Shown here: in pieces, positions 32,453-61,245 of the stretch
Position numbering within the stretch: position 1 is the stretch's first letter
How the letters are laid out: each line of letters opens with the position of its first letter
NCBI GenBank assembly: GCA_032128875.1
Contig: JAVLKG010000007.1
Span: 192,001-256,000, forward strand
Source: Candidatus Melainabacteria bacterium 17Bon1m
GTDB taxonomy: Bacteria; Cyanobacteriota; Vampirovibrionia; Obscuribacterales; Obscuribacteraceae
Direction: 5' to 3'
DNA: 64,000 nt
Position numbers and translations under genes: made by a program
The notes under the pieces: model-generated
What the model was told of the DNA's origin: nothing
The model's database searches: none
Seen by the model: only the letters and a program-made list of their open reading frames with translations

Positions 32453-32511
32453 AATCAGAGCGGAAGCGATGCAGCCCAAATGAGAGCCGCCGTCACGTTT
32501 GACGCGGCTGA

Positions 32512-34032: not shown

Positions 34033-34038
34033 CAGACC

Positions 34039-45932: not shown

Positions 45933-46168
45933 TTTCAACTATTTTTTTGAACGCGCTTTTGGTTTATTGCTAGACGGCCATACACAAAAAATACACAGAC
46001 TGTTCCGGTTTTGTTTCCAGACCAGCAATTATCGTGATTGCAGTCGACCGCTGAATGCGTTTCCTCAAACGCCGAAGAACGTTACAGCAATCGCCGAACA
46101 ACGTTGCACAAATCGCTGAACAACGCTGCAGCTGTCGCCCGTTTCTCCCCAAGCCCGGATTTACTAAT

Positions 46169-47074: not shown

Positions 47075-47224
47075 AACGAGTTTTGGGAGAAAGAGGAGGA
47101 AAGGGGCTTTTGGTCCCTTTTCTTTTTGATTGAATTGCCTTCTTCTTTGTTTGGCATCACGTTTTTTGTTTGGATTTTCGTGCTGGAATTCGAGAAACTA
47201 AAAGATATAGTGGAAAATGGGGTT

Positions 47225-47278
47225 AAAAAGAAACCGCGCACAGCAAGCCTTGTTTAAGGGCTCCCCATGCGCGGTTTC
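47225..47278 (-). terminator. Terminator closing the ubiquitin-like operon
   Basis: GAAACCGCGCA/TGCGCGGTTTC stem with AAAAA on the + strand. Confidence 0.6.
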
Positions 47279-47354
47279 GAAATCTGATACGCCGGACGCA
47301 ACCAACCTAACCTTTGCTTTTGGCTTGGTTACGAAGGTCGCGTGCGGTTAGGCG

Positions 47355-49820
47355 TCAGTTCTTCTTCAGCGAAGCTGCGGCTCCGTTGTCTGCCGGTCCG
47401 TCCTTCTTGAGAGAGACGGTGGCGTCGCCTTTGCCTTCAGCGTTGCCTTCGCCGGCGGTTTCCACAGTGGCAACCTTTTCCAGCGACACCGGCTTGGCCA
47501 GCGAGATCTTCTCTTCCGGAGGATTTTCCGCAGAGAGCACGAGCGTGTTGCCATCGGCACCAACGTTGACCTTGGCGCCGTGCTTGACGGACCCGTCGAT
47601 GATCTTTTCGGCCATCGGGTCTTCGATGAGCGCACGAACGGCGCGCTTCATCGGACGTGCACCGAACTGCGGATCGTAACCCGCCTCCAGCAGCACAGCG
47701 CGAGCGGCATCGTCGGCGTCGAGCGTGATGCTCTTCTCGTTGAGCTTCTTCTCCAGTGCCTTCAGCTGCAGCTTCAGCACTTCGCGCAGCTCGTCCTTGG
47801 ACAGCTGACCGAAGCAAACGATTTCGTCCAGCCGGTTGAGGAATTCCGGGCGGAACATCAGCTTGACGATCGGCATCACCTCGTTGAGAAGGTCCTGGTG
47901 CGAGCAGTCGACGCCGAGCTTTTCGAGCAAGGCCATGATCTGCTGCGCGCCGATGTTCGACGTCATGATGATGATCGTGTTCTTGAAGCTGACCGTGCGA
48001 CCCTGACCGTCGGTCAAGCGACCGTCGTCCAGAACCTGCAGCAGCACGTTGAACACGTCGGGGTGCGCCTTCTCGATTTCGTCGAGCAAGATGACGCTGT
48101 AGGGCTTGCGCCGCACAGCTTCCGTCAGCGTGCCGCCTTCTTCGTAACCGACGTAGCCCGGAGGCGCGCCGATCATGCGCGAAACGCTGTGCTTCTCCAT
48201 GTATTCGCTCATGTCGAGACGAACGATGTTGCGCTCCTCGTCGAAGAGGAACGACTGGAGAGCCTTGGAGAGTTCGGTCTTGCCCACGCCGGTCGGGCCG
48301 AGGAACATGAAGCTGCCGATCGGAGTGTTCGGGTCTTTCAACCCTGCACGCGAACGACGCACCGCACGCGACACGGCGGAGATCGCCATGTGCTGGCCGA
48401 TGACGCGCTTGTGCAGCTCATCTTCCATCTTCGAGAGGCGGGCGGCTTCATCGATGGTCAGCTTGTCCAGCTTGATGCCGGTCATCTGGCTGATCTTTGC
48501 TTCGATGTGCTCCTTGCTGAGTTCGGTGCCCGGGAAGTCGATAGCAAGCGCGCTACCGGCTTCGTCGATGACGTCGATGGCCTTGTCGGGCAGGAAACGG
48601 TCGGTAATGTACCGGTCCGCCATGTGCGCTGCCGTGACCACCGCTTCGTCAGAGATGGTGATGGCGTGGTGATCTTCCAGCGACTTCTTGCGGCCGCGCA
48701 GAATCTCGATGGTGTCTTGCACGGACGAGGGGTCCACCGTCACCGGCTGGAAGCGACGCTCGAGAGCGCCGTCCTTTTCGATGTGGCGGTATTCGTCCAG
48801 CGTGGTGGCACCAATGGCGGTGATCTCTCCGCGGGCAAGTGCCGGCTTGAGCGTGTTGCTCGCGTCCATTGCACCCTGCGCAGCGCCGGCTCCGATCAGG
48901 GTATGCAGTTCATCGATAAAGATGATGCAATCCTTCGTTGCCTGGAGTTCGGCGAGAAGCTGCTTCATGCGCTCCTCGAACTCACCGCGGAATTTCGTAC
49001 CGGCGACAAGAGCGACCAGGTCAAGGCGCAAGATGCGCTTTCCCTTCAGGCTCTTGGGCACGCGATCGAATGCAATCTCAACGGCAAGCCCTTCGGCGAT
49101 GGCAGTTTTGCCGACGCCGGGCTCGCCGATGAACACCGGGTTGTTCTTGGTCTGACGACCGAGAATTTCGACAGCCCGGCGGATTTCCTTCTTGCGCCCG
49201 ATGATGGGCTGGATCTTGTTCTCGCGAGCCAGCTTCGTCAGGTCGACCGTCATCTGGTCGAGCATGGAAGTCATGGCGCCTTCGCCTTCGGGCAGACCGT
49301 TGACGTTAGTCTTCACGGCTGCATCGAGGAAAGACGTCAGATTCTTCAGACGCTGTTCGGGAGTGAGATTGCCGTCGACTTGAGCGCCGCCCGGCAAGAC
49401 GATCGGAGGCTGATTCCGGCGTTCGATCGTCAGGAACGCGGATTTGATTACTCGCTGACCATCCGGGTGTTTCACCAGTTGGTGCAGCAAGTGAGTGGGA
49501 GTCGTGCAAATGTGCTTGTTCTTTTCGGCGACTTCGCCGGCTTTCACAAGCATTTCTTGGGCGTCGCGCCCAACTTCTGGTGCTGCGACTGTCGTCGTTC
49601 CACCTCCGGCCTGCGGCGAACCAAAGAGGTTTCGCGCAGTGCGCTCCAGGATGTCGGCCGTGAGACCGGCTTCCAAAAGGAGCTTGTGACCCAGAGATGA
49701 ACTTTCAGCTGCCACAGCCACCACAAGACACGCTACGTTTACATCTTTGGTGCCGATCGCAGCAGCCTTGAGGCCGGCGAGCGTCAGCACTTTGTCGAGT
49801 GATTGCGAGTTTTGCGGCAT
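47355..49820 (-). CDS. Class I Clp/Hsp100 AAA+ ATPase (ClpA/B/C family) lacking a middle domain
   Basis: Clp-N repeats, [65 protein letters not shown]. Confidence 0.93.
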
Positions 49821-49953
49821 GGTGTCCGTCCTCCGTTAGAGGATCACCTCGTTACTAAAGACCAGGTGAGCATATTGAGGGGATGAGTTGTGAGACAAAA
49901 GAGGTCAACACAAGTCACCAGGGCGAGACACCGAGGCAACTTTGTCCGAGTGA

Positions 49954-49991
49954 CGCAGACCGGTCCGGTGTGGACCCTTGACCGGTCTGCG
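49954..49991. other. Intergenic hairpin without U-tail between E1 and Clp
   Basis: CGCAGACCGGTC/GACCGGTCTGCG 12-bp stem. Confidence 0.6.
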
Positions 49992-50021
49992 ATTTAGCCA
50001 TTTCGGCGCAGGTTTCGACGG

Positions 50022-50711
50022 TTAGTCGAAATTCCGCGTCATCGTGTACAGCGGACGGAGACCGAAGATGATCTCGTTGTCCAGGGTGTCTTCCTTGCCG
50101 CCCTCGATTGCCTGGTAGCGGATGAACTGCCAGACAGCCAGACCGGAGACGGTCTCGGCGGTGGGACCCACGGTGATCGACGTGCCGCAAGCGGAAACTT
50201 CCGCCTTGGCGTCGTCATAGAGGGTCGCTTCCCAGCCCTTCACCTGAGCGGGCTTGGTGGGGTTGAGCGTGTAGATGCGGCCCTCGGTCGCGCCCATGCG
50301 GGTCTCGATCATGAGCTTGGTGCGCATCTTGTAGCGGATGCCCTTGTTCCAGATCTCCTTGCGCGAAGCCATCGTGTCCGTGAGCAGGAACACGACGTCA
50401 CCGAGAGTCTGCGAACCATCGACGCGCTCGTTGTGCGTGTGGATCTTCAGACCGGTGGCAGCCTTCACGACTTCCGCCAGCGCCTCGACCTTGAGCTTGC
50501 CGATGTGCGACTGGTCGTAGGCCTGGTTGGCGATGTTGTGGGCCTCGACGATGTCGAAGTCCCAGACGTGGATGTTTTCCAAACCCAGCTTGGCCAGGCT
50601 CAGAACGATGCGCGAACCAGTTGCACCGGCGCCGATGACGTCGATGCGCTTGTTGCCGAACGCGTCACGCGAAAAGATTTCGACGTGTCGAGTGATATCG
50701 ACATTGTTCAT
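50022..50711 (-). CDS. ThiF/E1-family ubiquitin-like activating enzyme
   Basis: VIGAGATGS, DFDIVEAHNIANQ, IGKLKVEA, TDT...R, single Cys in SACG; AAGGAG RBS. Confidence 0.9.
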   Translation of the reverse strand: MNNVDITRHVEIFSRDAFGNKRIDVIGAGATGSRIVLSLAKLGLENIHVWDFDIVEAHNIANQAYDQSHIGKLKVEALAEVVKAATGLKIHTHNERVDGSQTLGDVVFLLTDTMASRKEIWNKGIRYKMRTKLMIETRMGATEGRIYTLNPTKPAQVKGWEATLYDDAKAEVSACGTSITVGPTAETVSGLAVWQFIRYQAIEGGKEDTLDNEIIFGLRPLYTMTRNFD

Positions 50712-50808
50712 GGTGTGTTCTCCTTCGAAAGAACAGCCGGACAGGCCTACGCTCGAAGAGCGCAGATCCGTTCGCGGCTGGACTTGTTAGGTTGCAGGTG
50801 TGAGCCTG

Positions 50809-52575
50809 TTACTGAGCGTCGTCCGGGAGCCGGTCGGCGCGGTTGTTGGGATTGGACGGCTTCGGACCCTTGTAGTTGGTGCTCCAGGGGTGCGACGGAT
50901 CGTTGCAGTTCTGGGGCGTGCAGCGCTTCTTAGGGCGCTCGGAAGTCGTCGACTGATAGGGCTGGGGTGGGGTGGGACCGCTCTCGAAGAGGCTGCCCAA
51001 CCAAGCGAAGAAACCTTTCTTCTCCTCGACTTGAGGACCGGCACCGCCCTTGTAGGCGCCGGGCTGACCATTAAAAGGGGTGCCACCCGGACGAATGTCC
51101 TTGCCGGTGGGAATCAGCTCGCCATCGACCACCTGGCTGCCGACATCGTCGGGGCCCGCGGTGGCGCCGGGAGCGCTCGCGTCGCCGGTACCGGCGGCGT
51201 TGTCACCCTTCTCATTGGCGCCGGGCTTGCCGTCGCCGTTGTTGTCATCGCTCTTGCCGAACCAGTTCTTGAACACCGTGAACGTGCGCTCCTTCACCTT
51301 CGCCTTGTACTCGGCGGTGACTTCGGCGCGCAGCTCAGCGCTGATAGCGAGCGGGTCTTCCTTCTTCGGCGCGGGCTTTTCGGCCTCGTCGCGGTTGAGG
51401 AAATTGCTCAAGCCGGACTTCTCGTCCTGCTGGCGAGCTTGCTCTTCCTGGCGCTCCTTCCAGGTGCTCTGGTAGCCGCCCTGGCTGTAGCCGTAGCCCG
51501 AGGGACGCTCGTCGCTACGACCACCCTGCCACCACTTGCGAGTGACGGTGCCGCGCTCGAGGATGACCCTGCCGCTCTCCGGGTCCATCACTCCCCACGG
51601 CACGTCGAGAAGACGGTAGCCGAGCTGGAAGTAGTAGACGTCGAAGCAGCCGCGGCCGAGCTTGTTGAAGATGCCGCGGATGTAGTATTCGTGGCCTTCG
51701 CGAGCGAAGCGCTGCATGGTGCTCTCGTCGGTGCCGGACGGGCTGGTGCCCATACGCACGTGCGAGTGACCCCAGAAGTGCAGCTTGTTGGACTTGTCCA
51801 AGCCTGCGTCGCCGGCTTCCAGAAGCTCGAGGATGAGCTTCTCGGTGCCCTGCACGGACAGCTCCGTCTCGGTCGGAGTGACTTCCTGTTCGACCAGGAA
51901 AACCTCTTCGATGAGGAAGTCGCCGTTGGGGCGCTTGCTGACGGTGCCGAGCCAGCCGACTTCCTTGGGCGCCAGCTCGACGTACAGGCACATGCGCTTG
52001 TACGCGTCGGGCGTCATGTAGACGGTCGGAGCCGGCGGGTCGAAGATGAGCTCAGCGCGCGTGTGCGGGTAGTGCGGCTTGAAGGGGCCTTCCGGCTCGC
52101 GGTAGACGTAGGACTTCTTCTCTTCCTTCTTCTCGCCGGCCTTGTCACCGCCGGTGGTGTCGCCGGTCTTGGCGGCATCGCCTTCCTTGGCAGCACCTTC
52201 GGACACGGTCGCGCCCTCGGACACCGCCGCGCCTTCGCTCACCGAGTTCAAGGGAGCGCTGGACGTCGGCAGCGGGGGCGGGACATTCGTGCTGGACGTA
52301 CCCGTCGTTGCACCGGAGGTGCCGTTCGATGCCGGAACGCGCGGGACGCTCGTGCCGCTGGGCTTGTCGCCCTTATAGACGGGCTTGCCGTCGCCGGAAT
52401 TGGTGTCCTTCTTGGCCGCGCCGCCGTTCAGCGGGAAGCCGAACAGCTTCTCGAAGAAGCCGGGACCGGACTCGATGTTCTCTTCATTCGGATTCACCGG
52501 GCGATTGGAGCCGGCGCCGTCGGACTCGGTCGTGCGAATGACCGGCTTTGCCGACTTGTTGTCGTCGTTATTCAT
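50809..52575 (-). CDS. JAB/MPN+ (JAMM) metallopeptidase with long disordered termini
   Basis: KEVGWLG ... WGHSHVRMGTSPSGTD fits E-xn-HxH-x7-S-x2-D; AGGAG RBS. Confidence 0.88.
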   Translation of the reverse strand: MNNDDNKSAKPVIRTTESDGAGSNRPVNPNEENIESGPGFFEKLFGFPLNGGAAKKDTNSGDGKPVYKGDKPSGTSVPRVPASNGTSGATTGTSSTNVPPPLPTSSAPLNSVSEGAAVSEGATVSEGAAKEGDAAKTGDTTGGDKAGEKKEEKKSYVYREPEGPFKPHYPHTRAELIFDPPAPTVYMTPDAYKRMCLYVELAPKEVGWLGTVSKRPNGDFLIEEVFLVEQEVTPTETELSVQGTEKLILELLEAGDAGLDKSNKLHFWGHSHVRMGTSPSGTDESTMQRFAREGHEYYIRGIFNKLGRGCFDVYYFQLGYRLLDVPWGVMDPESGRVILERGTVTRKWWQGGRSDERPSGYGYSQGGYQSTWKERQEEQARQQDEKSGLSNFLNRDEAEKPAPKKEDPLAISAELRAEVTAEYKAKVKERTFTVFKNWFGKSDDNNGDGKPGANEKGDNAAGTGDASAPGATAGPDDVGSQVVDGELIPTGKDIRPGGTPFNGQPGAYKGGAGPQVEEKKGFFAWLGSLFESGPTPPQPYQSTTSERPKKRCTPQNCNDPSHPWSTNYKGPKPSNPNNRADRLPDDAQ

Positions 52576-52590
52576 TGTCTTCTCCTGGGC

Positions 52591-53451
52591 TCAGGCTCTT
52601 GCGAGCGGCCATTTGTCGATGAACTTGCTCATGTCGTCTTCGCCGACGCTCTCGACGAACTGGATAGCCAGCTCGGCGACGGTGGCGAATTCGAATTGCG
52701 CGATGAGCTCGAGGAGGGTTTCCTTGATTTCATCGATGCAAGCCGTGCCGTCCGGGTAGACGCGAGGCGCGTTCATTCCGGGCTGCACTGTGCGTACGCG
52801 GCGAGTGCTGTTGAACCATCTGACACCGTCATCCAGACCATCGGTGCGGATGACGATCATGTATTCACCCAGCTCATGCTGTTTGCCAGACTTGGGATGG
52901 GTGGCGACGAGAGTCTCGGTGAAGACCAGAAGCGCACCGTTGGTGACGCGAACGGCCTTCACTTTGTCGACCGCCATCAGGCGATCGTACTCGTCCGAGA
53001 AGCGCTGCTTGAGCGCGTCTTCAGGAAGGTTGGTGGAACCAACGAAGTGGTGCCGGGCATTCTTCACGAAGACTTCTTGCGCGGGACCAAGCTTCTGCTT
53101 GCGACTGTTGATCTTCGCAACTGCCTGCTTGGCCATGTCGCCGAGTCGCGCGGAACACAGCTCGATGTACCGCGCACGCGATGCCAGCATGGTCGCGTCA
53201 TATTGACGCCCGCGCAAATTGGTCGTCGTCACCACCGTGGGCGCGGGAGTGAATGCGAGCGTGAGCTGGTAAAAACCTTCGTACTCGGTTTCTTTCTCTG
53301 TGGCAGTGGCGCCCAGCAGCTTGAGTGCTTGCTGGAGATGCGCCTCGCCGATGATGATCGAGACGTCGTCCCACGGGTAGTACACCACACCGTGGTCGTG
53401 CAGCATCTGCTTATCGTTTGCGTCCAGGTTTGGAACGATATAGCTCTTCAT
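52591..53451 (-). CDS. Short E2/UBC-like protein (Cys retained, PHV changed to PRV)
   Basis: C-terminal domain homologous to that of 53467..55371; APRVYPDGTACI; GGAGGAG RBS. Confidence 0.65.
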   Translation of the reverse strand: MKSYIVPNLDANDKQMLHDHGVVYYPWDDVSIIIGEAHLQQALKLLGATATEKETEYEGFYQLTLAFTPAPTVVTTTNLRGRQYDATMLASRARYIELCSARLGDMAKQAVAKINSRKQKLGPAQEVFVKNARHHFVGSTNLPEDALKQRFSDEYDRLMAVDKVKAVRVTNGALLVFTETLVATHPKSGKQHELGEYMIVIRTDGLDDGVRWFNSTRRVRTVQPGMNAPRVYPDGTACIDEIKETLLELIAQFEFATVAELAIQFVESVGEDDMSKFIDKWPLARA

Positions 53452-53466
53452 AGCTTTTCTCCTCCC

Positions 53467-55371
53467 TTACCTGGCGACAGGCCAGCTGGTGATGTAGGCG
53501 CCCCAGTTGTCGGCGACGTTCACCGACTCGACAAAGGCGATGGCGAGCTGCACCGCAGAGGCGAGCTCACGCTTTTGAATGAGCGACGGGAAGAGATCCC
53601 GAGTATTGCCCATGCAAGCGTTGCCGTTGGGATCGACGTGCGGAGCGTTCATGTTGCCGTTGCCACCAGGGACCTTGCGGGTTTTGTTGAACCACTTGAT
53701 CATGTTGGTGGAGATGTCGATTTTGATGTCGAACGCGCCGATCTCGTGCTTCAGTCCCGTGTTCGGGTTGACGCAGTAGAGAACATCGGTGCTGACGACA
53801 ATCACGTTGCCGTCCACGCGAACGCCATTGACGTTCGCCAGCGTGGTCAGCTCATCGAACTCGCGGCCGATTTCCTCAGCCGGAGCAGCTTGCAGGCGTA
53901 GGAAATCGAACTCTTCCACAAGTGCACCACGCAGGTGCGCATGGAATGTCGCCTGCGAAGCGTTCAGATCAGCAGCGCTGATCTTTTTCGATTTGCCGGC
54001 ATTGAACTGACGCGTGCATTCCTGCACGTAGTGATCCGCGACTTTGCGCGTGATCACATTGTTGTCCGCGTCCACTGCGCCCTGCACTTCTTTGCGCACT
54101 TCCAGCAACAGTTTGGCAGCCAGAGCCGCTTCCATCTTTGCACCGAAGTGGACGTAGTGCATGTGCAGGTAGAGATTGCGTCCAACAATCTCGCCGACGA
54201 TAAAGCCGTTGTCGTCGATGAGTGGCATGCCGTGAGCCGAGGGTGCGAAGGCGGTTTCGCGCTTGAGCATGCGATGCCCCCAGACTCGCTCCGGTGCCGT
54301 GAGACACGGTGCACCGATGGGCGAGGAGTGCATGAAGATGCGGAAATTGCCGTCGTTGACAGGCGTCGCGTTGAGCCCGTTGCAATCGCGAATGATCACG
54401 TTGGAATTGACGACCGGCGTGAGGATCTCGCGCACAAGTGACGACAGCACAACCAGCCGTCGGCCGGTGATGCCTTCGCCTTCTACGCGGAAGTCAGTCG
54501 TGTCGGCATTCTCCACCGCCTGATTCTCAGCTTTAACCGAGGCGATCAGGTCTTCGAGGAACTTGTCGGCAGCCAGTTCGCCGTGCACCTGCTGCAGAAT
54601 TCTGAGCAGAAGACCGGCTCGCGCCTTCAAGTTCTTACGCGTGACCAGGTCGAGGTGGACATACAAGTTGCTGTCCACCAGCTCGCCGAGCGCGAAGTTG
54701 GTGTTGGGCTCGATGATCGGCACGCCCGTTCCGGAAGCGCCGAACACCGTATGACCGGTGCTCATCTGCGCTCCGAGCAGCCTCTGCGGCGGAGTCACAC
54801 CACCTGCCAGATTCTGTGGCGTGCTGAAAAGATACAGATGGAATTTCCCGTCTGTTGCGGGAGCTGCGGCTTGACCGTTCTTCAGGTGAACGACGATGTC
54901 CTTCTTCACGCTGGGCATGAGAGCATCGTTCACCAGAGCTGCAAGGCGGCGGCGATTGAGCCGGCCTCTGAGGTCGTACCACTTGAGAGATCCAGCGACT
55001 TCGGTCTTGAAGCCGCTTAACGCGGGGTCGCGCCTTTCAGGGAAAGCGAGAACCGCTTCCTCGAATGCCCGACCGCTTGATGGGAAGACTTCGACCACGC
55101 GCGCTTTGAGCAGTCGCTTTGCCCTTGCAAATGACTGTGGGGAAAACGAGATACCGTCTTCTCCAGCTCCAGCGCTTGTTTGAGTGTAGGGGATCGAAGC
55201 CAGACGCAGCTTCTCCTTTTGCTCTTCGGTGAGCCAACGAACAAACACCTGAGAAGGTGTTCCTGGGCGACCAAAGAACAGGTGGAGATAATGCTGCGCA
55301 AAGGCGAGCAACCCGGCGACTATGAAGACGCCTGTGCCAGCCAACGCGAGAGTTTGCTGAAACTCGTTCAT
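53467..55371 (-). CDS. Membrane-anchored multidomain protein with C-terminal E2/UBC-like domain
   Basis: N-terminal hydrophobic helix; APHVDPNGNACMG matches E2 HPNIxxxGxICL spacing; Cys codon 53614-53616. Confidence 0.72.
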   Translation of the reverse strand: MNEFQQTLALAGTGVFIVAGLLAFAQHYLHLFFGRPGTPSQVFVRWLTEEQKEKLRLASIPYTQTSAGAGEDGISFSPQSFARAKRLLKARVVEVFPSSGRAFEEAVLAFPERRDPALSGFKTEVAGSLKWYDLRGRLNRRRLAALVNDALMPSVKKDIVVHLKNGQAAAPATDGKFHLYLFSTPQNLAGGVTPPQRLLGAQMSTGHTVFGASGTGVPIIEPNTNFALGELVDSNLYVHLDLVTRKNLKARAGLLLRILQQVHGELAADKFLEDLIASVKAENQAVENADTTDFRVEGEGITGRRLVVLSSLVREILTPVVNSNVIIRDCNGLNATPVNDGNFRIFMHSSPIGAPCLTAPERVWGHRMLKRETAFAPSAHGMPLIDDNGFIVGEIVGRNLYLHMHYVHFGAKMEAALAAKLLLEVRKEVQGAVDADNNVITRKVADHYVQECTRQFNAGKSKKISAADLNASQATFHAHLRGALVEEFDFLRLQAAPAEEIGREFDELTTLANVNGVRVDGNVIVVSTDVLYCVNPNTGLKHEIGAFDIKIDISTNMIKWFNKTRKVPGGNGNMNAPHVDPNGNACMGNTRDLFPSLIQKRELASAVQLAIAFVESVNVADNWGAYITSWPVAR

Positions 55372-55424
55372 ATGGGGTCCACCTATTAACGGCGACGCAC
55401 GGCCTCATAGAGAGACACTAAAGA

Positions 55425-55453
55425 GAAGTGGCTCCCCAAGCGGGAGCCACTTC
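55425..55453 (-). terminator. Stem-loop after the Ubl gene (weak terminator or mRNA stabiliser)
   Basis: GAAGTGGCTCCC-CAAGC-GGGAGCCACTTC perfect 12-bp stem, short UCUUU tail on the - strand. Confidence 0.6.
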
Positions 55454-55523
55454 GACCAACAATGTCACGTAGGAAGCCGTCGCACCTCAATGCCTTGAGA
55501 TAGCGACTGACGAGTTGACGGTC

Positions 55524-56285
55524 TTAGTTGCCGCGGACGGGGCGGAGCAAAAGAACCGTCTGGCCGTCGGTGACCGCAGTGGTCAGCGAAGCCGGCTGGC
55601 CGCTGACACGGATGTCGTAACCCGAAGCGTCGACCTCGGCCTGGCGCAGCACGGACTGGACGGTCCAGCTGTTGCCCTCGAGGACGAGCTTCTTGATGTT
55701 GCCGGGGACGCCGACGTTCACGGAGATCGTTCCGGTTGCGCCGCCGTTGTCCTTGTTCAGGTCGACGTTGCCGCGCACGGGGCGGAGCAAAAGAACCGTC
55801 TGACCGTCGGTGACCGCGGTGGTGAGCGAAGCCGGCTGACCGCTGACGCGGATGTCGTAGCCGGAAGCGTCGACCTCGGCCTGGCGCAGCACGGACTGGA
55901 CGGTCCAGCTGTTGCCTTCGAGAACGAGCTTCTTGATGTTGCCGGGAACACCGACGTTCACCGAGATGGTGCCGCCGTTGTTCTCGTTCTTGCCCAGGTC
56001 GACGTTGCCGCGAACGGGGCGGAGCAGAAGGACGGTCTGGCCGTCGGTGACAGGCGTATCGGCGTTGGACGGCTGACCGCTGACGCGGATGTCGTAGCCG
56101 TTGGCGTCGATTTCGGCGTACTTCAGGACGTCCTTGACGGTCCAGCCGTTGCCTTCGAGAACGAGCTTCTTGATGTTGCCGGGAACGCCGACATTCACGG
56201 AGATGGTGCCGACGGCAGCGGTATTGTTGGTGCCGGTGGCGGAATCGGTGGTCGTGGCCGTTTCGGGCTTGTTCAGGTTTGCCAT
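55524..56285 (-). CDS. Tandem tri-ubiquitin-like (beta-grasp) protein
   Basis: Three 68-aa units with beta-beta-alpha-beta pattern (ISVNV, KKLVL, TVxxVL, IRVSG, VTDGQTVLLL), each ending RPVRGN; AAGGAG RBS. Confidence 0.85.
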   Translation of the reverse strand: MANLNKPETATTTDSATGTNNTAAVGTISVNVGVPGNIKKLVLEGNGWTVKDVLKYAEIDANGYDIRVSGQPSNADTPVTDGQTVLLLRPVRGNVDLGKNENNGGTISVNVGVPGNIKKLVLEGNSWTVQSVLRQAEVDASGYDIRVSGQPASLTTAVTDGQTVLLLRPVRGNVDLNKDNGGATGTISVNVGVPGNIKKLVLEGNSWTVQSVLRQAEVDASGYDIRVSGQPASLTTAVTDGQTVLLLRPVRGN

Positions 56286-56464
56286 GATGTTTAGCTCCTT
56301 TGACTTCGTACGAGAGTGAGACCGTGATCAGGTCTCGGGGTTGGTGTGTTTCCTGCTCTGTCCACAGCAATCAAAAAACCCAAGCGCGCGCTACCCCGCA
56401 GCGGTACCGCTGGTGGTGACAACAAACTATCGAACGCGAATGGGGTTGAGAGGTGGGTGAAAGA

Positions 56465-56576
56465 GCGAAGGGAAAAACGAGGAAACACAGGATCATGTAA
56501 CTAGCAAAGAGGCTCTTGCTATTACAACGCGCGTATATGCATGCATGTTACCTGTTATGAAAAACTCTCGCGCGCA
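56465..56576 (-). promoter_or_regulatory. Probable promoter region of the Ubl operon, homologous to 60537..60640
   Basis: Collinear shared blocks GCGAA(A)GGGAAA, ACAGGATC(A)TGTA.CTA.CAA, GCATGT, CTCGCGCGC. Confidence 0.5.
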
Positions 56577-57035
56577 CAAACGTAGTTCTAATGAGCTTCT
56601 TGAGGTGCTGTCAAGAAATAGACTCTCGAAGATATACATATGCTTTCGAATGCTTTAACAGATTCAAAGCAGACTAGAGATTCGCGCAGTTAGATACGGG
56701 CGTGCGGAACCTTGATCTCTTGGCATTTTGTTGTTAATAGTTGTCAGTTGTTGGTGTTGCCTGTGGCGACAAGCATTTGATTGGTTTTCAAGAAAGTGGC
56801 TGTCAATAGATGTTTGGTGTGGTTTGTTTTCAAGTGCTAGCGCTGCTTTCCAAAGGTTGAAGGTCGCCGGACTGCTGCTTGACTAGTGGTTTCTCTATTC
56901 ATTTCTATATGACATCGCGAGCCAAAATTGGATTTGCCGTAACTTATTTCGTGCGCCTGAGGTATTGCTGATAGATATGCGGCTTCCTAAATAAGCAATC
57001 GCTACAGCTTTGGAGATGTCGGCTTCAATGACTGC

Positions 57036-57111
57036 TCTGCTCTTGTTACTGCTCTAATGACTCTTCTGCTCTTGTTATTGCTCTAATAACTCTTCTGCTC
57101 TTGTTACTGCT
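57036..57111. repeat. 29-bp tandem repeat x about 2.6
   Basis: TCTGCTCTTGTTAYTGCTCTAATRACTCT starting at 57036, 57065, 57094. Confidence 0.8.
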
Positions 57112-57132
57112 TGAATTACTGCTCGCCATGTA

Positions 57133-57304
57133 CTCCGAAATCCCGGGATTTTTCGGAGTACATGAAGAGCAGTTGCACAGCAAGCGTTTCCGGGTTTTTA
57201 GCCGTTTTGCGTAGCATCGAGATGAGATTTTGAGTCATGGTTTTATGGCCATTTCGGGACTTCTGAGGGTGTTTTCTCCTCCGAAAAATTCCGAGTTTTC
57301 GGAG
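57133..57304. promoter_or_regulatory. Two copies of palindrome CTCCGAAA-N10-TTTCGGAG
   Basis: 57133..57158 and 57279..57304: same arms and spacer length, different spacer sequence. Confidence 0.55.
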
Positions 57305-57459
57305 TGGATGGGCGAGTTGAAATTTCAGAATGGACTCAGGGAAAAACTCGAAGTCTCCGCAAATTTTGGTCGGGCACCGTATATGGTGCCAGGTTGATCA
57401 AATTTTTTTTGGGAAGTAATTCCGGTTAGGCGCTTAAAACGAAAAAGCAATAAAAGTGC

Positions 57460-57518
57460 AAAAAATGGAAGCCATGAGTACGAGTTTGCAAAACAAACTT
57501 GGTGTACTCATGGCTTCC
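57460..57518 (-). terminator. Intrinsic terminator after the second E2 pair
   Basis: GGAAGCCATGAGTAC/GTACTCATGGCTTCC 15-bp stem, A-rich run on the + strand. Confidence 0.75.
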
Positions 57519-57554
57519 CGAATTGATCAGATTTGGTTTGCTGTGACTCTCAGC

Positions 57555-58418
57555 TCACAGCAAAGGCCACTTACTCACGTACTTGCCGTACTCGTTGGCT
57601 TCCGGGTTCTCGATGAACTGGATAGCCAGCTCGGCTACCGTAGACAGTTCCAGGCGCGCGATCAGCTCCATGATTGTGGCATGGATTTCAGCGGCGCCTG
57701 CTCTGCCGTCGGAGAACACAGTCGGCGCCTGCATGCGCTCACGCACGCCGTCGACGCGGCGGGAGTTGTTCTGCCAGCGGATGCCGTCCTCACTGCCGTC
57801 CAGATAGACGGTGATGAGAAACTGGCCAATTTCATGGCGGAAGCCGCTCTCCGGGTCTGTAGCGCAGAGAATCTCAGTCGAGATGAGGAGCCTGTTTGGC
57901 ACCACATGCACCGCCTGAACACCCTGCACCATGCGGACACGCTCCAGTTCTGCGACCAGCGTCTGTCCCGCGTTTTCGTTGCCGGCAATCTTGCTCGAGC
58001 CGAAGACTTCCGTCCGCTTGCTCGTCACAAAGCGCTGCTTGGCTGCAGAGAGCTTCTTGCGATTGCCGGAGGCGGTACTGGCAGCGGCGTCGAGAATCGA
58101 CTTCGTGCGCGACTCACAGGCCTTGATGTACCGCTTGCGATACTCCAGGCGTTCGGCTTCGCGACGCAGTGTTTCCGCATCAACTTCGTCGTTCTTGCCC
58201 TGCTCTTTTCTCTTCTTCTTGAAGGTGAGCTTGAGCTTGTAGACGTTTTCGTACTTCGATTTGCTCTTGGCGCCGGTGGCGTTCAGGACAGCCAGCACGA
58301 TGTCCAATTGCGTTTCCTCGAACATGATGCCCGAGTCCCACGGATAGTGCTGCACGCCTGCATTGGTCAGCAAGCTCAGCTGCTCATCCGTGAGGTCTTT
58401 CACTAGATAGCTTTTCAT
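57555..58418 (-). CDS. Short E2-variant (UEV-like, no catalytic Cys), paralog of 52591..53451
   Basis: MKSYLV start with AGGAG RBS; APTVFSDGRAGA aligned to APRVYPDGTACI; TVAELAIQF...KWPL shared. Confidence 0.65.
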   Translation of the reverse strand: MKSYLVKDLTDEQLSLLTNAGVQHYPWDSGIMFEETQLDIVLAVLNATGAKSKSKYENVYKLKLTFKKKRKEQGKNDEVDAETLRREAERLEYRKRYIKACESRTKSILDAAASTASGNRKKLSAAKQRFVTSKRTEVFGSSKIAGNENAGQTLVAELERVRMVQGVQAVHVVPNRLLISTEILCATDPESGFRHEIGQFLITVYLDGSEDGIRWQNNSRRVDGVRERMQAPTVFSDGRAGAAEIHATIMELIARLELSTVAELAIQFIENPEANEYGKYVSKWPLL

Positions 58419-58439
58419 TTTGCTTCTCCTGGGCATGCA

Positions 58440-60302
58440 TTACACCTCGCCTACGGCTTCGGGAAACAGCGAGATTCCCTTGCCCCAGGCATCCGAGGTG
58501 TTGACCGATTCGACGAAAGCAATAGCCAGCTGCACTGCTGAAGCGTATTCGCGCTTCTTGATGAGCATCGGGAAGAGGTCCTGCGTGTTCCCGAAGCACG
58601 CCTTGCCGCGGCTGGAAACATGCGGAGCATGCATTGTGCGGCTCTCCATTTGGATGGTCCTGGTCTGGTTAAGCCAGGTCACCTCCGAGTTGGAATCCAT
58701 CGGGATGGTGATCTTGAACTCGCCGATTTCATGCCGCTTGCCCGAGCGAGGATCAACGCAGTAGAGCATGTCGGTCATGATCACGATCGACTTCTGCTTC
58801 ACTTCCACCGACCGCACTTTGTACACTCGGCAGAGTTCATCGAACTCGCGCCCCAGCTCTTCAGCTCCGGAGTGCTCGAGCCGGAAGACTTCGGCGTCTG
58901 CGATCACAGCGTCGCGCAGAGCCTTGCTCAGTTCTTGCTCGCTTACAGGCTTGTCGTTCTTGCCGGCTTTGACGCTCGCTGCAATCAGTGCCGCTTCTTC
59001 TTTGAGGTCTTCCTCCGTGAAGCGCGGACCACCTGCGCGTGCAGCCTGTTTTTCCACCAGCTTGCCTGCTTGGACAAACAGTCGAGCAAGCAGCTTCGCT
59101 TCCGCTTTGGAGGCGTGCGTGAGCAGGTACTGGTGAATGTACAAGTTGTTGCCGACGAGTTCTGCGTAGATGAAGCCGCTGGCTTCGAAGAGCGGGATGC
59201 CCAGACCGGTGGGACCGAACGCCTTATCCTGGCGAATCAAGTCACAACCGAGCAGCTTCTTGGGCACGTCTTCGCCTGCGCGTCCGGCGACGGCAGAGTT
59301 GAAGAAGACGTGAAACATGCCGTCGTTGAGCGGGCGCTGCGTCTGTCCATGGCAGTTCTTCACGTGGATTTCTTGCCGCAGGTAGGGGCTGAGGAACTTG
59401 TGGATGGTGGCGCGCACAACGGCACGCTCTCCCGCTTCCTCGAAGCCCTCGTCAGCGATCGTCTGGCGACCAGCCGCTGGTGGTATCCCTTCGCCTTCCT
59501 CGGCGTAAACTTCCTGAAGGAATTGTGCCGGGTCGCGCTCTATGAGCACCCGTTGCAAAACCCGCGTCAAAAGCGCATAGCGCTGCTCTTCGCCGAGCTG
59601 CCAGAAGTCAGCGTAAATATAAAGCGCGCCCTTCGTCAGTTCGCCGACGATGTAGCCGGTGGCCGGATCGATAACCGGAGAGCCGGTCACGGAGTAGACA
59701 TACGAGTGCTGCGGCGCAACCTCGATGTCGAACACTCGCGGGGGCAATTGTTCGCGCGTGCTTGTGCGCGGAACCGTGCCGAAGAGGATGTGGAAGTTGT
59801 GGTCGTATTCGCGATCAACGCGCCCGTTGGCGTCGAGCGTCACTTTGATGCGCTTGTCCAGGCGACCGGCTAAGACCGCATGAACAACCTGTTGCACTCG
59901 CGGCGCGGTTGTTTTGTCACGCTTGTTGACCCAAACTGTAATCTGCTCGAGGTTATGGGCGTTTGCATTCTCGTGGGGGAAAGCGAGAACCGCCTCGTGC
60001 AGCTCTTTGCCGTTGAGCATCAAGGACGCTGTGTGCGTCGCATTCAGCGCGGCTAGAGCTCGGGGAAGATGGTCGTACTTGACGATGATACCGGCAGTAG
60101 CGTCCGGTGCGTTGCCGGTCTCAAACTGAACACCAGCAGCCCGTAGAGCCTCTTTGTGCGTATCTTGCAGATAGCGCATGAAGTAATTCTTCGGACGTGC
60201 CAGGTATTTCTGAAGCAGCCGCCAGGCTTTCCATCCGCCGTAACCGAGCAGAGAGATACCAGCAGCAGCTAGAGATACATAGATAATCATTTGCCAGGGC
60301 AT
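58440..60302 (-). CDS. Membrane-anchored multidomain E2/UBC-like protein, paralog of 53467..55371
   Basis: N-terminal TM; APHVSSRGKACFGNTQDLFP; ASAVQLAIAFVESVN identical in both paralogs; Cys codon 58596-58598. Confidence 0.72.
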   Translation of the reverse strand: MPWQMIIYVSLAAAGISLLGYGGWKAWRLLQKYLARPKNYFMRYLQDTHKEALRAAGVQFETGNAPDATAGIIVKYDHLPRALAALNATHTASLMLNGKELHEAVLAFPHENANAHNLEQITVWVNKRDKTTAPRVQQVVHAVLAGRLDKRIKVTLDANGRVDREYDHNFHILFGTVPRTSTREQLPPRVFDIEVAPQHSYVYSVTGSPVIDPATGYIVGELTKGALYIYADFWQLGEEQRYALLTRVLQRVLIERDPAQFLQEVYAEEGEGIPPAAGRQTIADEGFEEAGERAVVRATIHKFLSPYLRQEIHVKNCHGQTQRPLNDGMFHVFFNSAVAGRAGEDVPKKLLGCDLIRQDKAFGPTGLGIPLFEASGFIYAELVGNNLYIHQYLLTHASKAEAKLLARLFVQAGKLVEKQAARAGGPRFTEEDLKEEAALIAASVKAGKNDKPVSEQELSKALRDAVIADAEVFRLEHSGAEELGREFDELCRVYKVRSVEVKQKSIVIMTDMLYCVDPRSGKRHEIGEFKITIPMDSNSEVTWLNQTRTIQMESRTMHAPHVSSRGKACFGNTQDLFPMLIKKREYASAVQLAIAFVESVNTSDAWGKGISLFPEAVGEV

Positions 60303-60323
60303 GGCTGATATTCCTTCGGTTTT

Positions 60324-60387
60324 ACTCTCTATGGGCAGCGCACGTGATGCTTTGTTGAAGCAGTCTCATGCGGCGCCCATAGAGAGT
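60324..60387. other. Long hairpin in the 5' leader of the second E2 pair
   Basis: ACTCTCTATGGGC/GCCCATAGAGAGT 13-bp stem plus inner TGCTT/AAGCA. Confidence 0.55.
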
Positions 60388-61245
60388 TTTGCGTTAGAGT
60401 CAGAAACTCGTTCCGCGCAGCAGACCCCCACCACTCTTGTCACCACATGCAGTGCCGTGATCCCGAAATTCAGGATCGGCACAAGATGCACTTGAGTAAG
60501 GTGAGATTAGTGGGGGACTGCTGAGGGAGCGGTAGTGCGAAAGGGAAAGTAAAAGAACAGGATCTGTAGCTATCAAGCTCGCACTTAGCAAAGTATTAGA
60601 GCATGTATATTTCGTGAGCTAAGAAAACACTCGCGCGCGCCTGCGGAATCTGGCGAAAGCGGCAACCGGTTTGAGTTTTTCTCTGACGCCGAAAGAAGAA
60701 CTATATGAACGCTGCGCTCATTATTTGCGCCGTTTAAGGACTTAACAGTGAGCGCGCGTTGGCCTAGGTGTTTCTAAAACCGTGTCAAAAAAATACCGGA
60801 ATTCGGTAACAATACCGGTTTACAATGTGCTTTACATCCAGCAAAAGAAGCGTTCTTAATCCGCAAACTCTTGGCCCACTTATAGTCTCTAATAACTACT
60901 TTGCTGAAAGCTCTTTGAACTTCCGATTGACTTATTTTCTTTGCTCTTACTAGAGTGATGTTCTTCCCTCCTCAGTCATCCTTCGTCGAGAAAAACCAGA
61001 ACTAGCCGCTTTCGTGTTTACACAAGCATCGAATCAGCACCAAAGCAGGTGTTCGTTCGAGCGCGCCGGTCGTTTTTTTCTGGGCAACTGATGCTGAGAT
61101 TTGTTGTCGGCTCTTCTGAAAGTTTGAGTCGAAACTCTTCGGGCGAGTGTTCTTGCGGTTGATGCCAAAAAGAGCGCACGCACTTATGCCTCCTCTACGA
61201 GGTCCACAGCCGCCACTACATGCGGTGCAACTTAATGGGTGCAGC

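What the first reader, a model, noticed from the sequence alone, without database searches (positions are those of the whole stretch)
47355..60640. Candidate undescribed bacterial ubiquitination system: poly-Ubl, paired E2s, JAB, E1 and a dedicated Clp ATPase
SEEN: six co-directional genes in the order tri-Ubl (55524-56285), TM-E2-like (53467-55371), short E2-like (52591-53451), JAB (50809-52575), ThiF/E1 (50022-50711) and Clp AAA+ (47355-49820). Gaps are 152, 15, 15, 97 and 201 bp, most genes have SD sites, and a terminator follows Clp. A second long+short E2 pair sits upstream. No rhodanese, ThiG, MoaE or cysteine synthase is nearby, and no RING/E3 was recognised. KNOWN: Ubl+E1+E2+JAB operons exist in bacteria (Bil antiphage systems, Bub operons, CBASS Cap2/Cap3, PRTRC cassettes). 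INFERENCE: this is a protein-conjugation pathway rather than sulfur transfer. I do not recognise the combination of a cleavable poly-Ubl, membrane-anchored E2s, four E2 paralogs and an in-operon unfoldase from those systems. It resembles a compact tag-and-extract pathway acting at the membrane.
Basis: partly seen in the sequence, partly recalled or inferred. Interest (0 to 1): 0.95.

Follow-up and report, generated by a model that had tools for sequence, protein, structure and literature searches.

The report
Bacterial ubiquitin-like tagging operon with unfoldase
An uncultured relative of cyanobacteria carries a real, conserved operon that joins a ubiquitin-like tag, its activating, conjugating and trimming enzymes to its own protein-unfolding motor, a combination I could not find described in print and whose function is still untested.

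Summary
All eight ORFs, the gaps, the ribosome-binding sites and a hairpin after Clp are there.

- The tag gene is three ThiS-like units, each ending in Gly-Asn.
- The 229-aa E1 has an invariant loop cysteine.
- The JAB core folds as an Rpn11-type JAMM peptidase with all catalytic residues.
- The shared C-terminal domain of the four "E2" proteins models as a UBC fold with moderate scores.

Two points are new here. E2s always come as a pair: a long, mostly membrane-anchored form that keeps His and Cys, and a short form that often lost them (UEV-like), and in four loci of the Clp-less layout the two are fused. The Clp lacks both the ClpB middle domain and a ClpP-docking loop. It follows E1 in 15 of 20 loci fetched from other Obscuribacterales genera and groups apart from the housekeeping Clps.

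The core set (E2, JAB, mini-E1, Gly-Asn tag) is a large family absent from Pfam, NCBIfam, PADLOC and PHROGs, also seen in Saccharibacteria and on a viral-labelled contig. Five literature searches found no description. Conjugation, targets and the Clp's role are inferred, not shown.

The parts
55524..56285 (-). Poly-Ubl precursor (P0001, 253 aa): an N-terminal tail plus three ThiS-like units, each ending ...RPVRG-N
   Evidence: Translation. Pfam ThiS 6e-07, 30.4 bits against a cut-off of 22.5. NCBIfam PRK06437 8e-14 in 3 stretches, below its cut-off. 240-nt repeat x2.9. Gly93 and Asn94 invariant in 20 aligned tags. The best PDB profile hits are weak but are beta-grasp modifiers: PF1061 at 0.051 and SAMP2 at 0.076. 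Not folded here.
55425..55453 (-). Strong hairpin (12-bp stem, 8 GC pairs) between the tag gene and the long E2 gene; possibly an attenuator or RNA-stabilising element
   Evidence: Listed first by the terminator scan. Its tail is T-poor. Its function is inferred.
53467..55371 (-). Long E2 (P0002, 634 aa): N-terminal hydrophobic helix (residues 7-25), two copies of an unknown ~100-aa domain, and a C-terminal UBC-like domain with His578 and Cys586
   Evidence: (KD19 2.11; internal repeat 37% identity, E 7e-21). The UBC fold is inferred from the model of its paralog P0003. Cys in 44 of 44 and His in 41 of 44 long/first-class domains.
52591..53451 (-). Short E2-like partner (P0003, 286 aa): small alpha/beta N-domain, long helix, and a UBC-like domain with Cys238 but Arg230 at the His position
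   Evidence: AF2 model with mean pLDDT 91.1. VIA-align top Z 6.7 to UBE2S, with mostly UBC/UEV-type chains among the top 30 rows. Foldseek best E 0.037, probability 0.93, UbcH5c.
50809..52575 (-). JAMM/MPN+ peptidase (P0004, 588 aa): catalytic core about residues 185-350 (Glu205, His270, His272, Ser280, Asp283) between long low-complexity tails
   Evidence: Motif residues invariant in 36 aligned homologs. AF2 pLDDT 88.9. Foldseek: 188 PDB chains at E<=0.001, top Rpn11 at 6.4e-08, followed by other proteasome and Caldiarchaeum Rpn11 chains, BRCC36-complex chains, PfJAMM1 and COP9 signalosome chains. No Pfam, NCBIfam or PADLOC hit.
50022..50711 (-). Minimal single-domain E1 (P0005, 229 aa) with Cys175 in the loop after the adenylation core
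   Evidence: Pfam ThiF 5.5e-22. Below the cut-off of the 25 NCBIfam E1/ThiF models shown, out of 29 matched. Cys175, Asp51, Asp53, Asn59, Lys74 and Asp112 at >=95% in 32 distinct relatives.
47355..49820 (-). Two-ring Clp/Hsp100 ATPase (P0006, 821 aa) with a divergent N-domain, no middle domain and no ClpP-docking loop
   Evidence: AAA_2 3.7e-72, AAA, AAA_lid_9 and ClpB_D2-small. Below the ClpB, ClpA and ClpV cut-offs. Alignment with the genome's own ClpB, ClpC-like and ClpA-like proteins. Walker and pore-loop motifs present. N-domain matches Clp_N at only 14.1 bits against a cut-off of 20.7.
47225..47278 (-). Hairpin (11-bp stem) plus T-run after the Clp gene: the likely operon end
   Evidence: Read by eye; not listed by the scan tool.
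58440..60302 (-). Second long E2 (P0007, 620 aa): N-terminal hydrophobic helix, His561 and Cys569
57555..58436 (-). Second short E2-like partner (P0008, 293 aa) lacking both His (Thr239) and Cys (Gly247): UEV-like
57459..57518 (-). Hairpin (15-bp stem) plus T-run after the second pair, which makes that pair a transcription unit of its own
   Evidence: Read by eye; its loop is too long for the scan tool.

Best explanation
This is a ubiquitin-like protein-conjugation operon of an undescribed family, which in Obscuribacterales has gained a paired E2 and a dedicated unfoldase.

Proposed course (every enzymatic step is inferred, none was assayed):
1. The JAMM peptidase cuts the three-unit precursor after the invariant Gly of each Gly-Asn, freeing tags that end in Gly.
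2. The small E1, probably a homodimer like ThiF/MoeB, adenylates that Gly and takes the tag onto its invariant Cys175.
3. The tag passes to the invariant Cys of the long E2. This protein is held at the inner membrane by an N-terminal helix, and its two unknown repeat domains probably choose the targets.
4. The short partner, which has often lost the His and Cys, acts as a non-catalytic or auxiliary E2 variant bound to the long one, as UEV proteins do.
5. The Clp ATPase has intact motors but no middle domain and no ClpP loop. It recognises tagged proteins through its divergent N-domain and unfolds or extracts them, while the Rpn11-like peptidase recovers the tag.

Shown here: the identity of the parts, their conserved residues, the pairing and fusion of the two E2 forms, and the conserved linkage with Clp.
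For: Parts:
- Tag: ThiS match and Gly-Asn invariant in 20 of 20 aligned tags, followed in the tag frames read by at most four residues before the stop in all but one, L044, whose frame runs on for about 170 residues, or by the next unit.
- E1: ThiF match and Cys175 plus the ATP/Mg residues conserved in 32 distinct relatives.
- JAB: Glu, His-x-His, Ser and Asp invariant in 36 sequences. Its model matches 188 PDB chains at E<=0.001, with Rpn11 first.
- E2: a confident model (pLDDT 91) whose residues 144-285 match E2 enzymes, with mostly UBC/UEV-type chains in the top 30 VIA rows (best Z 6.7, 117 aligned residues) and nearly all of the top 50 Foldseek rows being E2 or UEV chains. Cys238 sits just before helix 240-251, after the four-strand meander.

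Pairing:
- The E2 domain occurs in even numbers in 32 of 34 positive genomes.
- The long form keeps Cys in 44 of 44 and His in 41 of 44. The short form keeps Cys in 21 of 40 and His in 5 of 40.
- The two forms are fused in one frame in L029, L034, L036 and L044.

Clp link:
- The order tag, long E2, short E2, JAB, E1, Clp is seen in 15 of 20 loci fetched from other genera.
- Clp follows E1 in 9 of 19 genome-contig loci and in 11 of 80 metagenome loci.
- The 22 operon Clps lie on one side of a branch from the genome's own ClpA-like, ClpB and ClpC-like proteins (SH-aLRT 82).
- The genome already has ClpB, a ClpC-like and a ClpA-like protein.
- There is no [LIV]-G-F loop and no middle domain.

Membrane anchor: an N-terminal hydrophobic 19-mer in 29 of 41 long forms.
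Against: - No activity was tested, and no target or E3 is known.
- The UBC assignment rests on moderate scores: no Foldseek match at E<=0.001, and a best Z of 6.7, where the tool warns that Z under 8 can be a common arrangement. No sequence profile of any E2 family matches.
- The tag was not folded, and its PDB profile hits are not significant.
- Most members of the wider family lack Clp. In 42 of 80 metagenome loci the tag gene follows E1 directly, and two tag-first loci (L058, L064) have about 2 kb downstream without Clp. Clp is therefore an add-on.
- Support for one Clp clade is only 82, with just three outgroup rows.
- Loss of Cys need not mean inactivity, because Bub enzymes work through oxyesters (PMC11601596, abstract).
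- Contigs from RNA libraries cover genes and spacers alike at flat depth, so expression is not shown.
Confidence: 0.65

Rival explanations
1. The chemistry is the same, but the biological role is defence against phages or other mobile elements, as in Bil systems. The tag would be put on invader proteins and the Clp would unfold or disable them. This differs from the best explanation in purpose, not in mechanism.
For: Patchy spread: 34 of 101 genomes of the order and 13 of 35 genera, and 0 of 400 other genomes sampled from the phylum. Several copies per genome. Relatives occur in Saccharibacteria and on a 188-kb contig filed as viral. Bil and Bub operons are tied to antiphage immunity (PMC11601603 introduction; PMC11601596 abstract).
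Against: 14 of 15 flanking ORFs have no PADLOC hit; the one hit is a Dam-like methyltransferase 18 kb away. The system's own proteins match no PADLOC system model beyond the generic E1 core. No integrase or defence neighbour was seen in the window. Membrane-anchored E2s and extra E2 pairs fit housekeeping or quality control equally well.
Confidence: 0.3
2. The Clp gene is a neighbour with a separate job, a general chaperone, and is not part of the tagging pathway.
For: A 201-bp gap before Clp. All three RNA-library assemblies break near 49984, between E1 and Clp, but they come from one sample and also break inside Clp. Most relatives of the core system lack Clp.
Against: Clp sits in the same position and strand in 15 of 20 loci from other genera, while the long E2 has diverged to 28-40% identity. 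The operon Clps group apart from the genome's own ClpA-like, ClpB and ClpC-like proteins. The N-domain is divergent. Three ordinary Clp ATPases are already present.
Confidence: 0.12
3. A sulfur-carrier (thiocarboxylate) pathway of the ThiS/MoaD kind for a cofactor or natural product, with JAB only trimming the carrier.
For: The tag matches ThiS and the E1 matches ThiF/MoeB best. ThiS/MoaD + JAB + E1 operons of that kind are described (PMC1779556, Table 1 rows 4b-4e, passages seen).
Against: No rhodanese, cysteine synthase, ThiG or MoaE among 22 neighbours. Two UBC-like proteins with an invariant Cys always accompany the set. The precursor is multi-unit. There is an unfoldase partner.
Confidence: 0.04

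Closest known systems
Bil (BilABCD, Type I/II) bacterial ISG15-like ubiquitination operons
   Same: Separate genes for a Ubl, an E2, a JAMM peptidase and an E1. The Ubl has a conserved Gly that must be exposed by the peptidase. Some Ubls have up to three beta-grasp domains (10.1101/2023.09.26.559546, passages; PMC11601603, sections 3 and 5).
   Different: BilD is a large E1 with inactive and active adenylation domains and a CYS domain; here the E1 is one 229-aa domain. The residues after Gly are non-conserved in Bil, whereas here Asn is invariant. The three units here are near-identical repeats, each with its own cleavage site. Here the E2 comes as a long/short pair with a membrane helix. A Clp follows E1. 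'AAA' and 'Clp' do not occur in the Bil preprint's text. No profile match.
Bub (6E/DUF6527) operons
   Same: [quoted passage not shown] Iyer et al. 2006 noted an inactive E2/RWD-like partner in this class (PMC1779556, section 14).
   Different: Bub proteins are fusions (Ubl-E2, JAB-E1 or E2-E1), use oxyesters, have an E1 without a catalytic Cys, and include the DUF6527 serine protease (PMC11601596 abstract; PMC11601603 section 5). Here the genes are separate, the E1 Cys and the long-E2 Cys are invariant, and no DUF6527 match was found.
Eukaryotic and archaeal ubiquitin systems coupled to AAA+ unfoldases (Rpn11 on the 26S proteasome, Cdc48/p97; Caldiarchaeum Ub operon; SAMPs)
   Same: The JAB core's best structural matches are Rpn11, the Caldiarchaeum Rpn11 homolog and PfJAMM1 bound to SAMP2. 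The tag's nearest, though weak, PDB profile hits are SAMP2-type modifiers. A tag system is joined to an unfolding motor.
   Different: The motor is a Clp/Hsp100 two-ring ATPase, not a Cdc48 or Rpt type. No proteasome or ClpP link is seen. The tag ends in one Gly, not Gly-Gly. No RING E3 was found. That these systems work together in eukaryotes and archaea is recalled knowledge, apart from the PDB titles.
Ubc13-Mms2/Uev1a type pairs (active E2 plus catalytically dead E2 variant)
   Same: An adjacent, sometimes fused pair of one conserved and one degenerate UBC-like domain. Ubc13/Mms2/Uev chains are among the fold matches.
   Different: No sequence kinship was shown, and about half of the short partners keep a Cys. 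The role of UEVs in chain building is recalled, not tested here.
ClpV (TssH) and ClpB
   Same: Two AAA+ rings, no ClpP loop, and it acts without a protease. Like ClpV it lacks a long middle domain.
   Different: Scores fall below the curated cut-offs: ClpV1 661 against 884.95, ClpB 897.9 against 1232.1. The N-domain barely matches Clp_N. It sits in a Ubl operon, not a type VI secretion cluster.

Membership tests
UBC/E2 fold superfamily | alpha-beta(4)-alpha fold of E2 enzymes | tested here: met
   AF2 model of P0003 (pLDDT 91.1). Residues 144-285 match E2 chains at Z 5.0-6.7 over 107-124 residues, with mostly UBC/UEV-type chains in the top 30 rows. Foldseek best E 0.037, probability 0.93. The scores are moderate.
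UBC/E2 fold superfamily | Catalytic Cys after the beta-meander, preceded by an HPN-like loop (motif recalled) | tested here: met
   Long forms: Cys in 44 of 44 and His in 41 of 44 at fixed spacing (x-P-H ... G-x-x-C). Short forms: Cys in 21 of 40 and His in 5 of 40. The alignment to the canonical HPN-Cys spacing was made by eye.
UBC/E2 fold superfamily | Sequence match to any curated E2 profile (UQ_con, Prok-E2 families; names recalled) | tested here: not met
   No such family at E<=0.1 for the four window proteins and none at E<=0.001 for 19 homologs. PADLOC E2 0.051.
JAMM/MPN+ metallopeptidases | MPN fold with Glu ... His-x-His-x7-Ser-x2-Asp | tested here: met
   Glu205, His270, His272, Ser280 and Asp283 are invariant in 36 sequences. 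188 PDB matches at E<=0.001, Rpn11 first.
ThiF/MoeB/E1 adenylating enzymes | Rossmann-type adenylation domain with a Gly-rich loop and Mg/ATP Asp residues | tested here: met
   PF00899 78.5 bits against a cut-off of 28.1. Conserved Gly27/29/32, Asp51/53, Lys74 and Asp112.
ThiS/MoaD-type beta-grasp Ubl | Beta-grasp domain ending in a reactive Gly | tested here: inconclusive
   PF02597 30.4 bits against a cut-off of 22.5 for the whole three-unit protein, but no single unit passes alone. PRK06437 gives 3 stretches below its cut-off. PDB profile hits are 0.05-0.8. Gly is invariant.
Bil (BilABCD) | Separate Ubl, E2, JAB and E1 genes in one operon | tested here: met
Bil (BilABCD) | E1 with inactive plus active adenylation domains and a CYS domain (10.1101/2023.09.26.559546, figure legend passage) | tested here: not met
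   The E1 is 229 aa, one ThiF domain covering residues 19-199.
Bil (BilABCD) | Recognised by defence-system profiles or sequence kinship to Bil proteins | tested here: not met
   PADLOC gives only CBASS-type E1-E2 matches to the first ~85 residues of the E1, and nothing above noise for the E2 or JAB. I did not compare directly with Bil sequences.
Bub (6E) | Fused Ubl-E2 / JAB-E1 or E2-E1 proteins plus a DUF6527 protease; E1 without a catalytic Cys | tested here: not met
   Genes are separate. There is no DUF6527 match. The E1 Cys175 is invariant.
PRTRC system | PRTRC ThiF family protein (TIGR03736) | tested here: not met
   37.5 bits against a cut-off of 144.75.
ClpB disaggregase | TIGR03346 score and a long coiled-coil middle domain | tested here: not met
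   897.9 against 1232.1. The middle domain is absent in the alignment with the genome's true ClpB.
ClpA/ClpC (ClpP partners) | [LIV]-G-[FL] ClpP-docking loop in ring 2 (motif recalled) | tested here: not met
   The loop is present in the genome's ClpC-like and ClpA-like proteins and deleted in P0006. It is absent in the other operon Clps where the region could be read. ClpA scores 745.2 against 993.15.
ClpV (TssH) | TIGR03345 score and a type VI secretion context | tested here: not met
   661 against 884.95. No T6SS family among the neighbours scanned.

The most novel reading that the evidence does not exclude
A bacterial counterpart of the ubiquitin-Cdc48/Rpn11 logic. A membrane-anchored E2 with a UEV-like partner tags membrane or membrane-near proteins with a Gly-ended Ubl, possibly as chains. 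A protease-free Clp motor recognises the tag and pulls the proteins out or apart. An Rpn11-like JAMM peptidase strips and recycles the tag at the motor. If true, tag-directed unfolding arose independently of, or before, the eukaryotic ubiquitin-proteasome system in a sister lineage of the cyanobacteria.
Probability: 0.22. Interest if true: 0.9.

Novelty: new variant of a known kind. Interest (0 to 1): 0.74.

Why it matters
Bacterial ubiquitin-like conjugation is so far known from CBASS, Bil and Bub, all discussed as antiphage systems. In the Bil and Bub texts I searched, none is wired to an unfolding motor.

This operon offers three things:
- A compact and conserved set in which the link between tagging and ATP-driven unfolding could be rebuilt from six proteins.
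- A new E2 family with a natural active/variant pair.
- A true polyubiquitin-like precursor.

It would help to ask how the tag-unfoldase-deubiquitinase triad, which is central to eukaryotic protein quality control, can arise. The core family is large (2125 cluster representatives) and is invisible to Pfam, NCBIfam, PADLOC and PHROGs, so annotation pipelines that rely on these libraries miss it.

Tried and rejected
- Complex prediction (Clp N-domain with one tag unit) was not available, so nothing is known about binding.
- Sequence searches of the E2 profile and of JAB against PDB gave only noise.
- The ESM Atlas gave unnamed clusters for P0003 and nothing usable for the N-terminal part of P0002.
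- Pfam on the E2 N-terminal regions, the JAB tail and the Clp N-domain gave nothing above cut-off.
- Rfam found no RNA family in 46900-61100.
- The terminator scan found 19 sites against 17.4 expected, so as a count it says nothing.
- Contigs of three RNA libraries, all from one sample, cover 46500-61500 at flat depth. Their breaks near 49984 and at the 55425-55453 hairpin, and the break inside Clp, cannot be read as transcript ends. This is no evidence for or against expression.
- The listing of cluster members gave no informative names: only 'hypothetical protein', or none, for 10 diverse E2 relatives.
- I considered the Cys-rich membrane protein after the contig-19 system as an E3. It had no tblastn match in the 20 loci fetched from other genera, so I dropped it.
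- I rejected the two other long frames over the tag repeats (55465-56370 minus strand, 55515-56294 plus strand) as by-products of a GC-rich repeat, because only the P0001 frame has family matches and conserved relatives.


Full report
**Observation.** The gaps computed from those coordinates are 152, 15, 15, 97 and 201 bp. All eight starts are ATG preceded by a purine-rich SD-like motif; the one before the long E2 is weak. A hairpin with a T-run follows Clp at 47278-47225 (by eye). Another follows the upstream short E2 at 57518-57459 (by eye), so the upstream pair is a unit of its own. The scan tool missed both because their loops exceed its limit. It did list a strong 12-bp hairpin at 55453-55425, between the tag gene and the long E2. 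The tag gene is a 240-nt unit repeated 2.9 times. None of 22 neighbouring ORFs matches a sulfur-transfer family.

**The parts: tag, E1 and Clp.** The tag (P0001) matches Pfam ThiS (30.4 bits, cut-off 22.5) and, in three stretches, a ThiS-like NCBIfam model below its cut-off. The E1 (P0005, 229 aa) matches ThiF (78.5 bits) but stays below the cut-off of the 25 NCBIfam models shown, out of 29 matched, including PRTRC_ThiF. In 32 distinct relatives, Cys175 and the ATP/Mg residues are at least 95% conserved. The Clp (P0006) has both AAA+ rings but is below the ClpB, ClpA and ClpV cut-offs.

**The parts: E2 and JAB.** The four E2-like proteins and JAB match nothing in Pfam, NCBIfam or PADLOC, and nothing in PHROGs. 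I therefore spent the two structure jobs on them.
- The short E2 (P0003, 41-sequence alignment) gave a model with pLDDT 91.1. Its residues 144-285 match E2 enzymes. In the search that does not use Foldseek, the best Z is 6.7 (UBE2S, 117 residues, rmsd 4.0), and most of the first 30 rows are UBC/UEV-type chains. Foldseek gives a best E of 0.037 and none at 0.001 or better. These are moderate scores, and the tool warns that Z under 8 can be a common arrangement. What adds weight is the near-uniform list, and the conserved Cys placed between the fourth strand and the next helix.
- The JAB core (36-sequence alignment; Glu, His-x-His, Ser and Asp invariant) gave pLDDT 88.9. It has 188 PDB matches at E<=0.001, led by Rpn11 (6.4e-08), followed by other proteasome and Caldiarchaeum Rpn11 chains, BRCC36-complex chains, PfJAMM1 and COP9 signalosome chains.

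**The E2s are unlike pairs.** The four window proteins share a ~160-aa C-terminal domain. A profile of it finds eight copies in this 7.55-Mb genome, always as adjacent long+short pairs: two pairs in the window, one on contig 8 and one on contig 19. Across 90 domain instances in the window's genome and the fetched loci, I classed the distinct sequences by their place in the frame.

| Class | Distinct domains | Cys at the aligned column | His |
|---|---|---|---|
| Long/first | 44 | 44 | 41 |
| Short/second | 40 | 21 (24 within one column) | 5 |

The three long-class rows with Arg at the His column lack the Gly-Asn/Ser that follows the Cys in the other 41; by their motifs they look like short-type domains (L012, L031, L042) whose stop-to-stop frame runs on upstream. 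In the window, P0003 keeps the Cys but has Arg for His, and P0008 has neither. In four loci of the Clp-less layout the two domains lie in one frame (L029, L034, L036, L044), which argues that the two proteins work together physically. The long forms carry an N-terminal hydrophobic 19-mer (Kyte-Doolittle >=1.6) in 29 of 41 frames. P0002 holds two copies of an unknown ~100-aa domain (37% identity, E 7e-21). Because Bub enzymes use oxyesters (PMC11601596, abstract), a short form without Cys is not proven inactive.

**The tag ends in Gly-Asn.** In 20 aligned tags from the window and 16 loci, Gly93 and Asn94 are invariant. In the tag frames read, Asn is followed by at most four residues before the stop in all but one (L044, whose frame runs on for about 170 residues), or, in the window, by a short linker and the next unit. 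Most other genera have a one-unit tag, so the three-unit precursor is a feature of this genus. Di-unit and four-unit forms occur elsewhere: contig 19, L048, L097 and L098. Each window unit has its own Gly-Asn site. This is closer to eukaryotic polyubiquitin genes than, as I recall, to the three-domain Ubls of Bil and Bub, which PMC11601603 (section 5) describes as single proteins with three beta-grasp domains.

**Whose genome, and how widespread.** The near-identical public loci are titled Obscuribacterales or Melainabacteria: 16 of 19 loci, with 2 from Saccharibacteria and 1 labelled 'Cyanobacteria bacterium'.
- The E2 domain was found in 0 of 400 other genomes sampled from the phylum.
- It was found in 34 of 101 genomes of the order, in 13 of 35 genera, and in even numbers in 32 of the 34.
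- Against 1.84 billion cluster representatives the profile finds 2125 proteins at E<=0.001, 1126 at 1e-10 and 314 at 1e-30.
- Nineteen diverse members have no Pfam family, and ten have no informative name.
- A 188-kb contig filed as viral carries two E2-JAB-E1 sets, one with a two-unit tag.

**Clp linkage.** From the 33 other positive genomes I fetched 20 places in 18 genomes of other genera.
- Fifteen of the 20 show tag, long E2, short E2, JAB, E1, Clp on one strand. In one of them the contig ends before the tag.
- Four show long E2, short E2, JAB, E1, tag without Clp.
- One contig ends after the short E2.

Some of these are the same records as loci. Among 80 metagenome loci found with an E1 profile, Clp follows E1 in 11, follows the tag in 1, and lies 2.7 kb away in 1. 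In 42 the tag gene follows E1. Of 12 tag-first loci, 9 have Clp after E1, 2 have about 2 kb downstream without it, and 1 is too short to tell. Clp therefore goes with the tag-first layout.

The genome also has a true ClpB, a ClpC-like and a ClpA-like protein. In a quick maximum-likelihood tree the 22 operon Clps lie on one side of a branch from these three (SH-aLRT 82). P0006 lacks the middle domain and the [LIV]-G-F loop that the ClpC-like and ClpA-like paralogs carry. The other operon Clps lack the loop wherever the region matched my pattern. Walker and pore-loop motifs are intact. The N-domain barely matches Clp_N (14.1 bits against 20.7).

**A second system.** Contig 19 holds a full paralogous set in another order: two-unit tag, JAB, E1 (65% identical), long E2, short E2. 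It has no Clp. Contig 8 holds an orphan E2 pair.

**Mechanism.** The mechanism given under Best explanation follows from these parts and from the known chemistry of E1, E2 and JAMM enzymes. The Rpn11-like peptidase beside a protease-free motor suggests tag removal at the unfoldase, but this is inference only.

**Comparison with known systems.** By gene content the set is closest to Bil. It fails Bil's E1 architecture, has no profile match, and adds the E2 pair, the membrane helix, the repeat precursor and Clp. It is not Bub: the genes are separate, Cys is conserved and there is no DUF6527 match. It is not PRTRC. None of the five operon types of Iyer et al. 2006 (PMC1779556, section 14 read) fits.

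**Literature.** Five full-text searches returned no paper on this family or on a Ubl operon with a Clp. 'Clp' is absent from both the Bil and Bub preprints; 'AAA' is absent from the Bil preprint, and in the Bub preprint it occurs only in a reference title and a strain name. Subscription journals are not covered by the search.

**Earlier notes of this scan.** Searches returned AI notes that describe the same core family in ultra-small bacteria and large phages. They also describe other Ubl operons with unfoldases. My own calls reproduce the Gly-Asn ending, the absence from the libraries, and the Saccharibacteria and viral-contig occurrences. I did not test the other notes.

**Verdict.** This is a real, conserved and apparently unpublished variant of bacterial ubiquitin-like conjugation, with a built-in unfoldase. 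Its function and targets are unknown.

Noticed in passing
G000 contig 19, about 27223-34840 (locus L052): A second complete system in another gene order: two-unit tag, JAB, E1, long E2 with a membrane helix, short E2. It is followed by a 179-aa Cys-rich (B-box-like by eye) multi-pass membrane protein and a Ser/Thr kinase with a repeat domain. There is no Clp.
   Followed up: partly
G000 contig 8, about 45404-48311 (locus L053): An orphan long+short E2 pair without a tag, E1 or JAB. The short partner has Ser-Ser where Cys would be. It is flanked by a cation-efflux-like membrane protein and an 839-aa coiled-coil membrane protein (both read by eye).
   Followed up: no
window 55425-55453 (-): A 12-bp, GC-rich hairpin directly after the tag gene and before the long E2. 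Two of the three RNA-library assemblies break at this spot. It could set a high tag-to-enzyme ratio.
   Followed up: partly
window 56286-56500 and 60303-60640 (-): The leaders upstream of the tag gene and of the second E2 pair share a block of roughly 110 nt of similar sequence. This hints at common regulation. There is no Rfam match.
   Followed up: partly
window 57027-57111: A 29-nt tandem repeat, 2.9 copies at 91% matches, inside the 1.27-kb gene-poor, lower-GC spacer between the two units.
   Followed up: no
window 55465-56370 (-) and 55515-56294 (+): Two further long open frames overlap the tag repeats. They have no family match and are most likely by-products of the GC-rich repeat.
   Followed up: partly
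L048 (IMG/VR contig of 187,794 bases, 38% GC): A contig filed as viral carries two E2-JAB-E1 sets a few kb apart, one with a two-unit tag.
   Followed up: partly
L097 8782-9624 and L098 4673-5515: Metagenome relatives with four tag units in a row after E1.
   Followed up: no
window 28558-30412 (-): A D12-class adenine methyltransferase next to a histone-deacetylase-family gene. It is the only PADLOC-positive gene among the 15 ORFs scanned between about 26,100 and 63,900 on either side of the operon.
   Followed up: no
window 50809-51500 (-), JAB residues about 411-430: Within the long low-complexity C-terminal tail of JAB, one short helix-like segment is conserved in relatives, including the contig-19 paralog. 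It could be a docking site.
   Followed up: no
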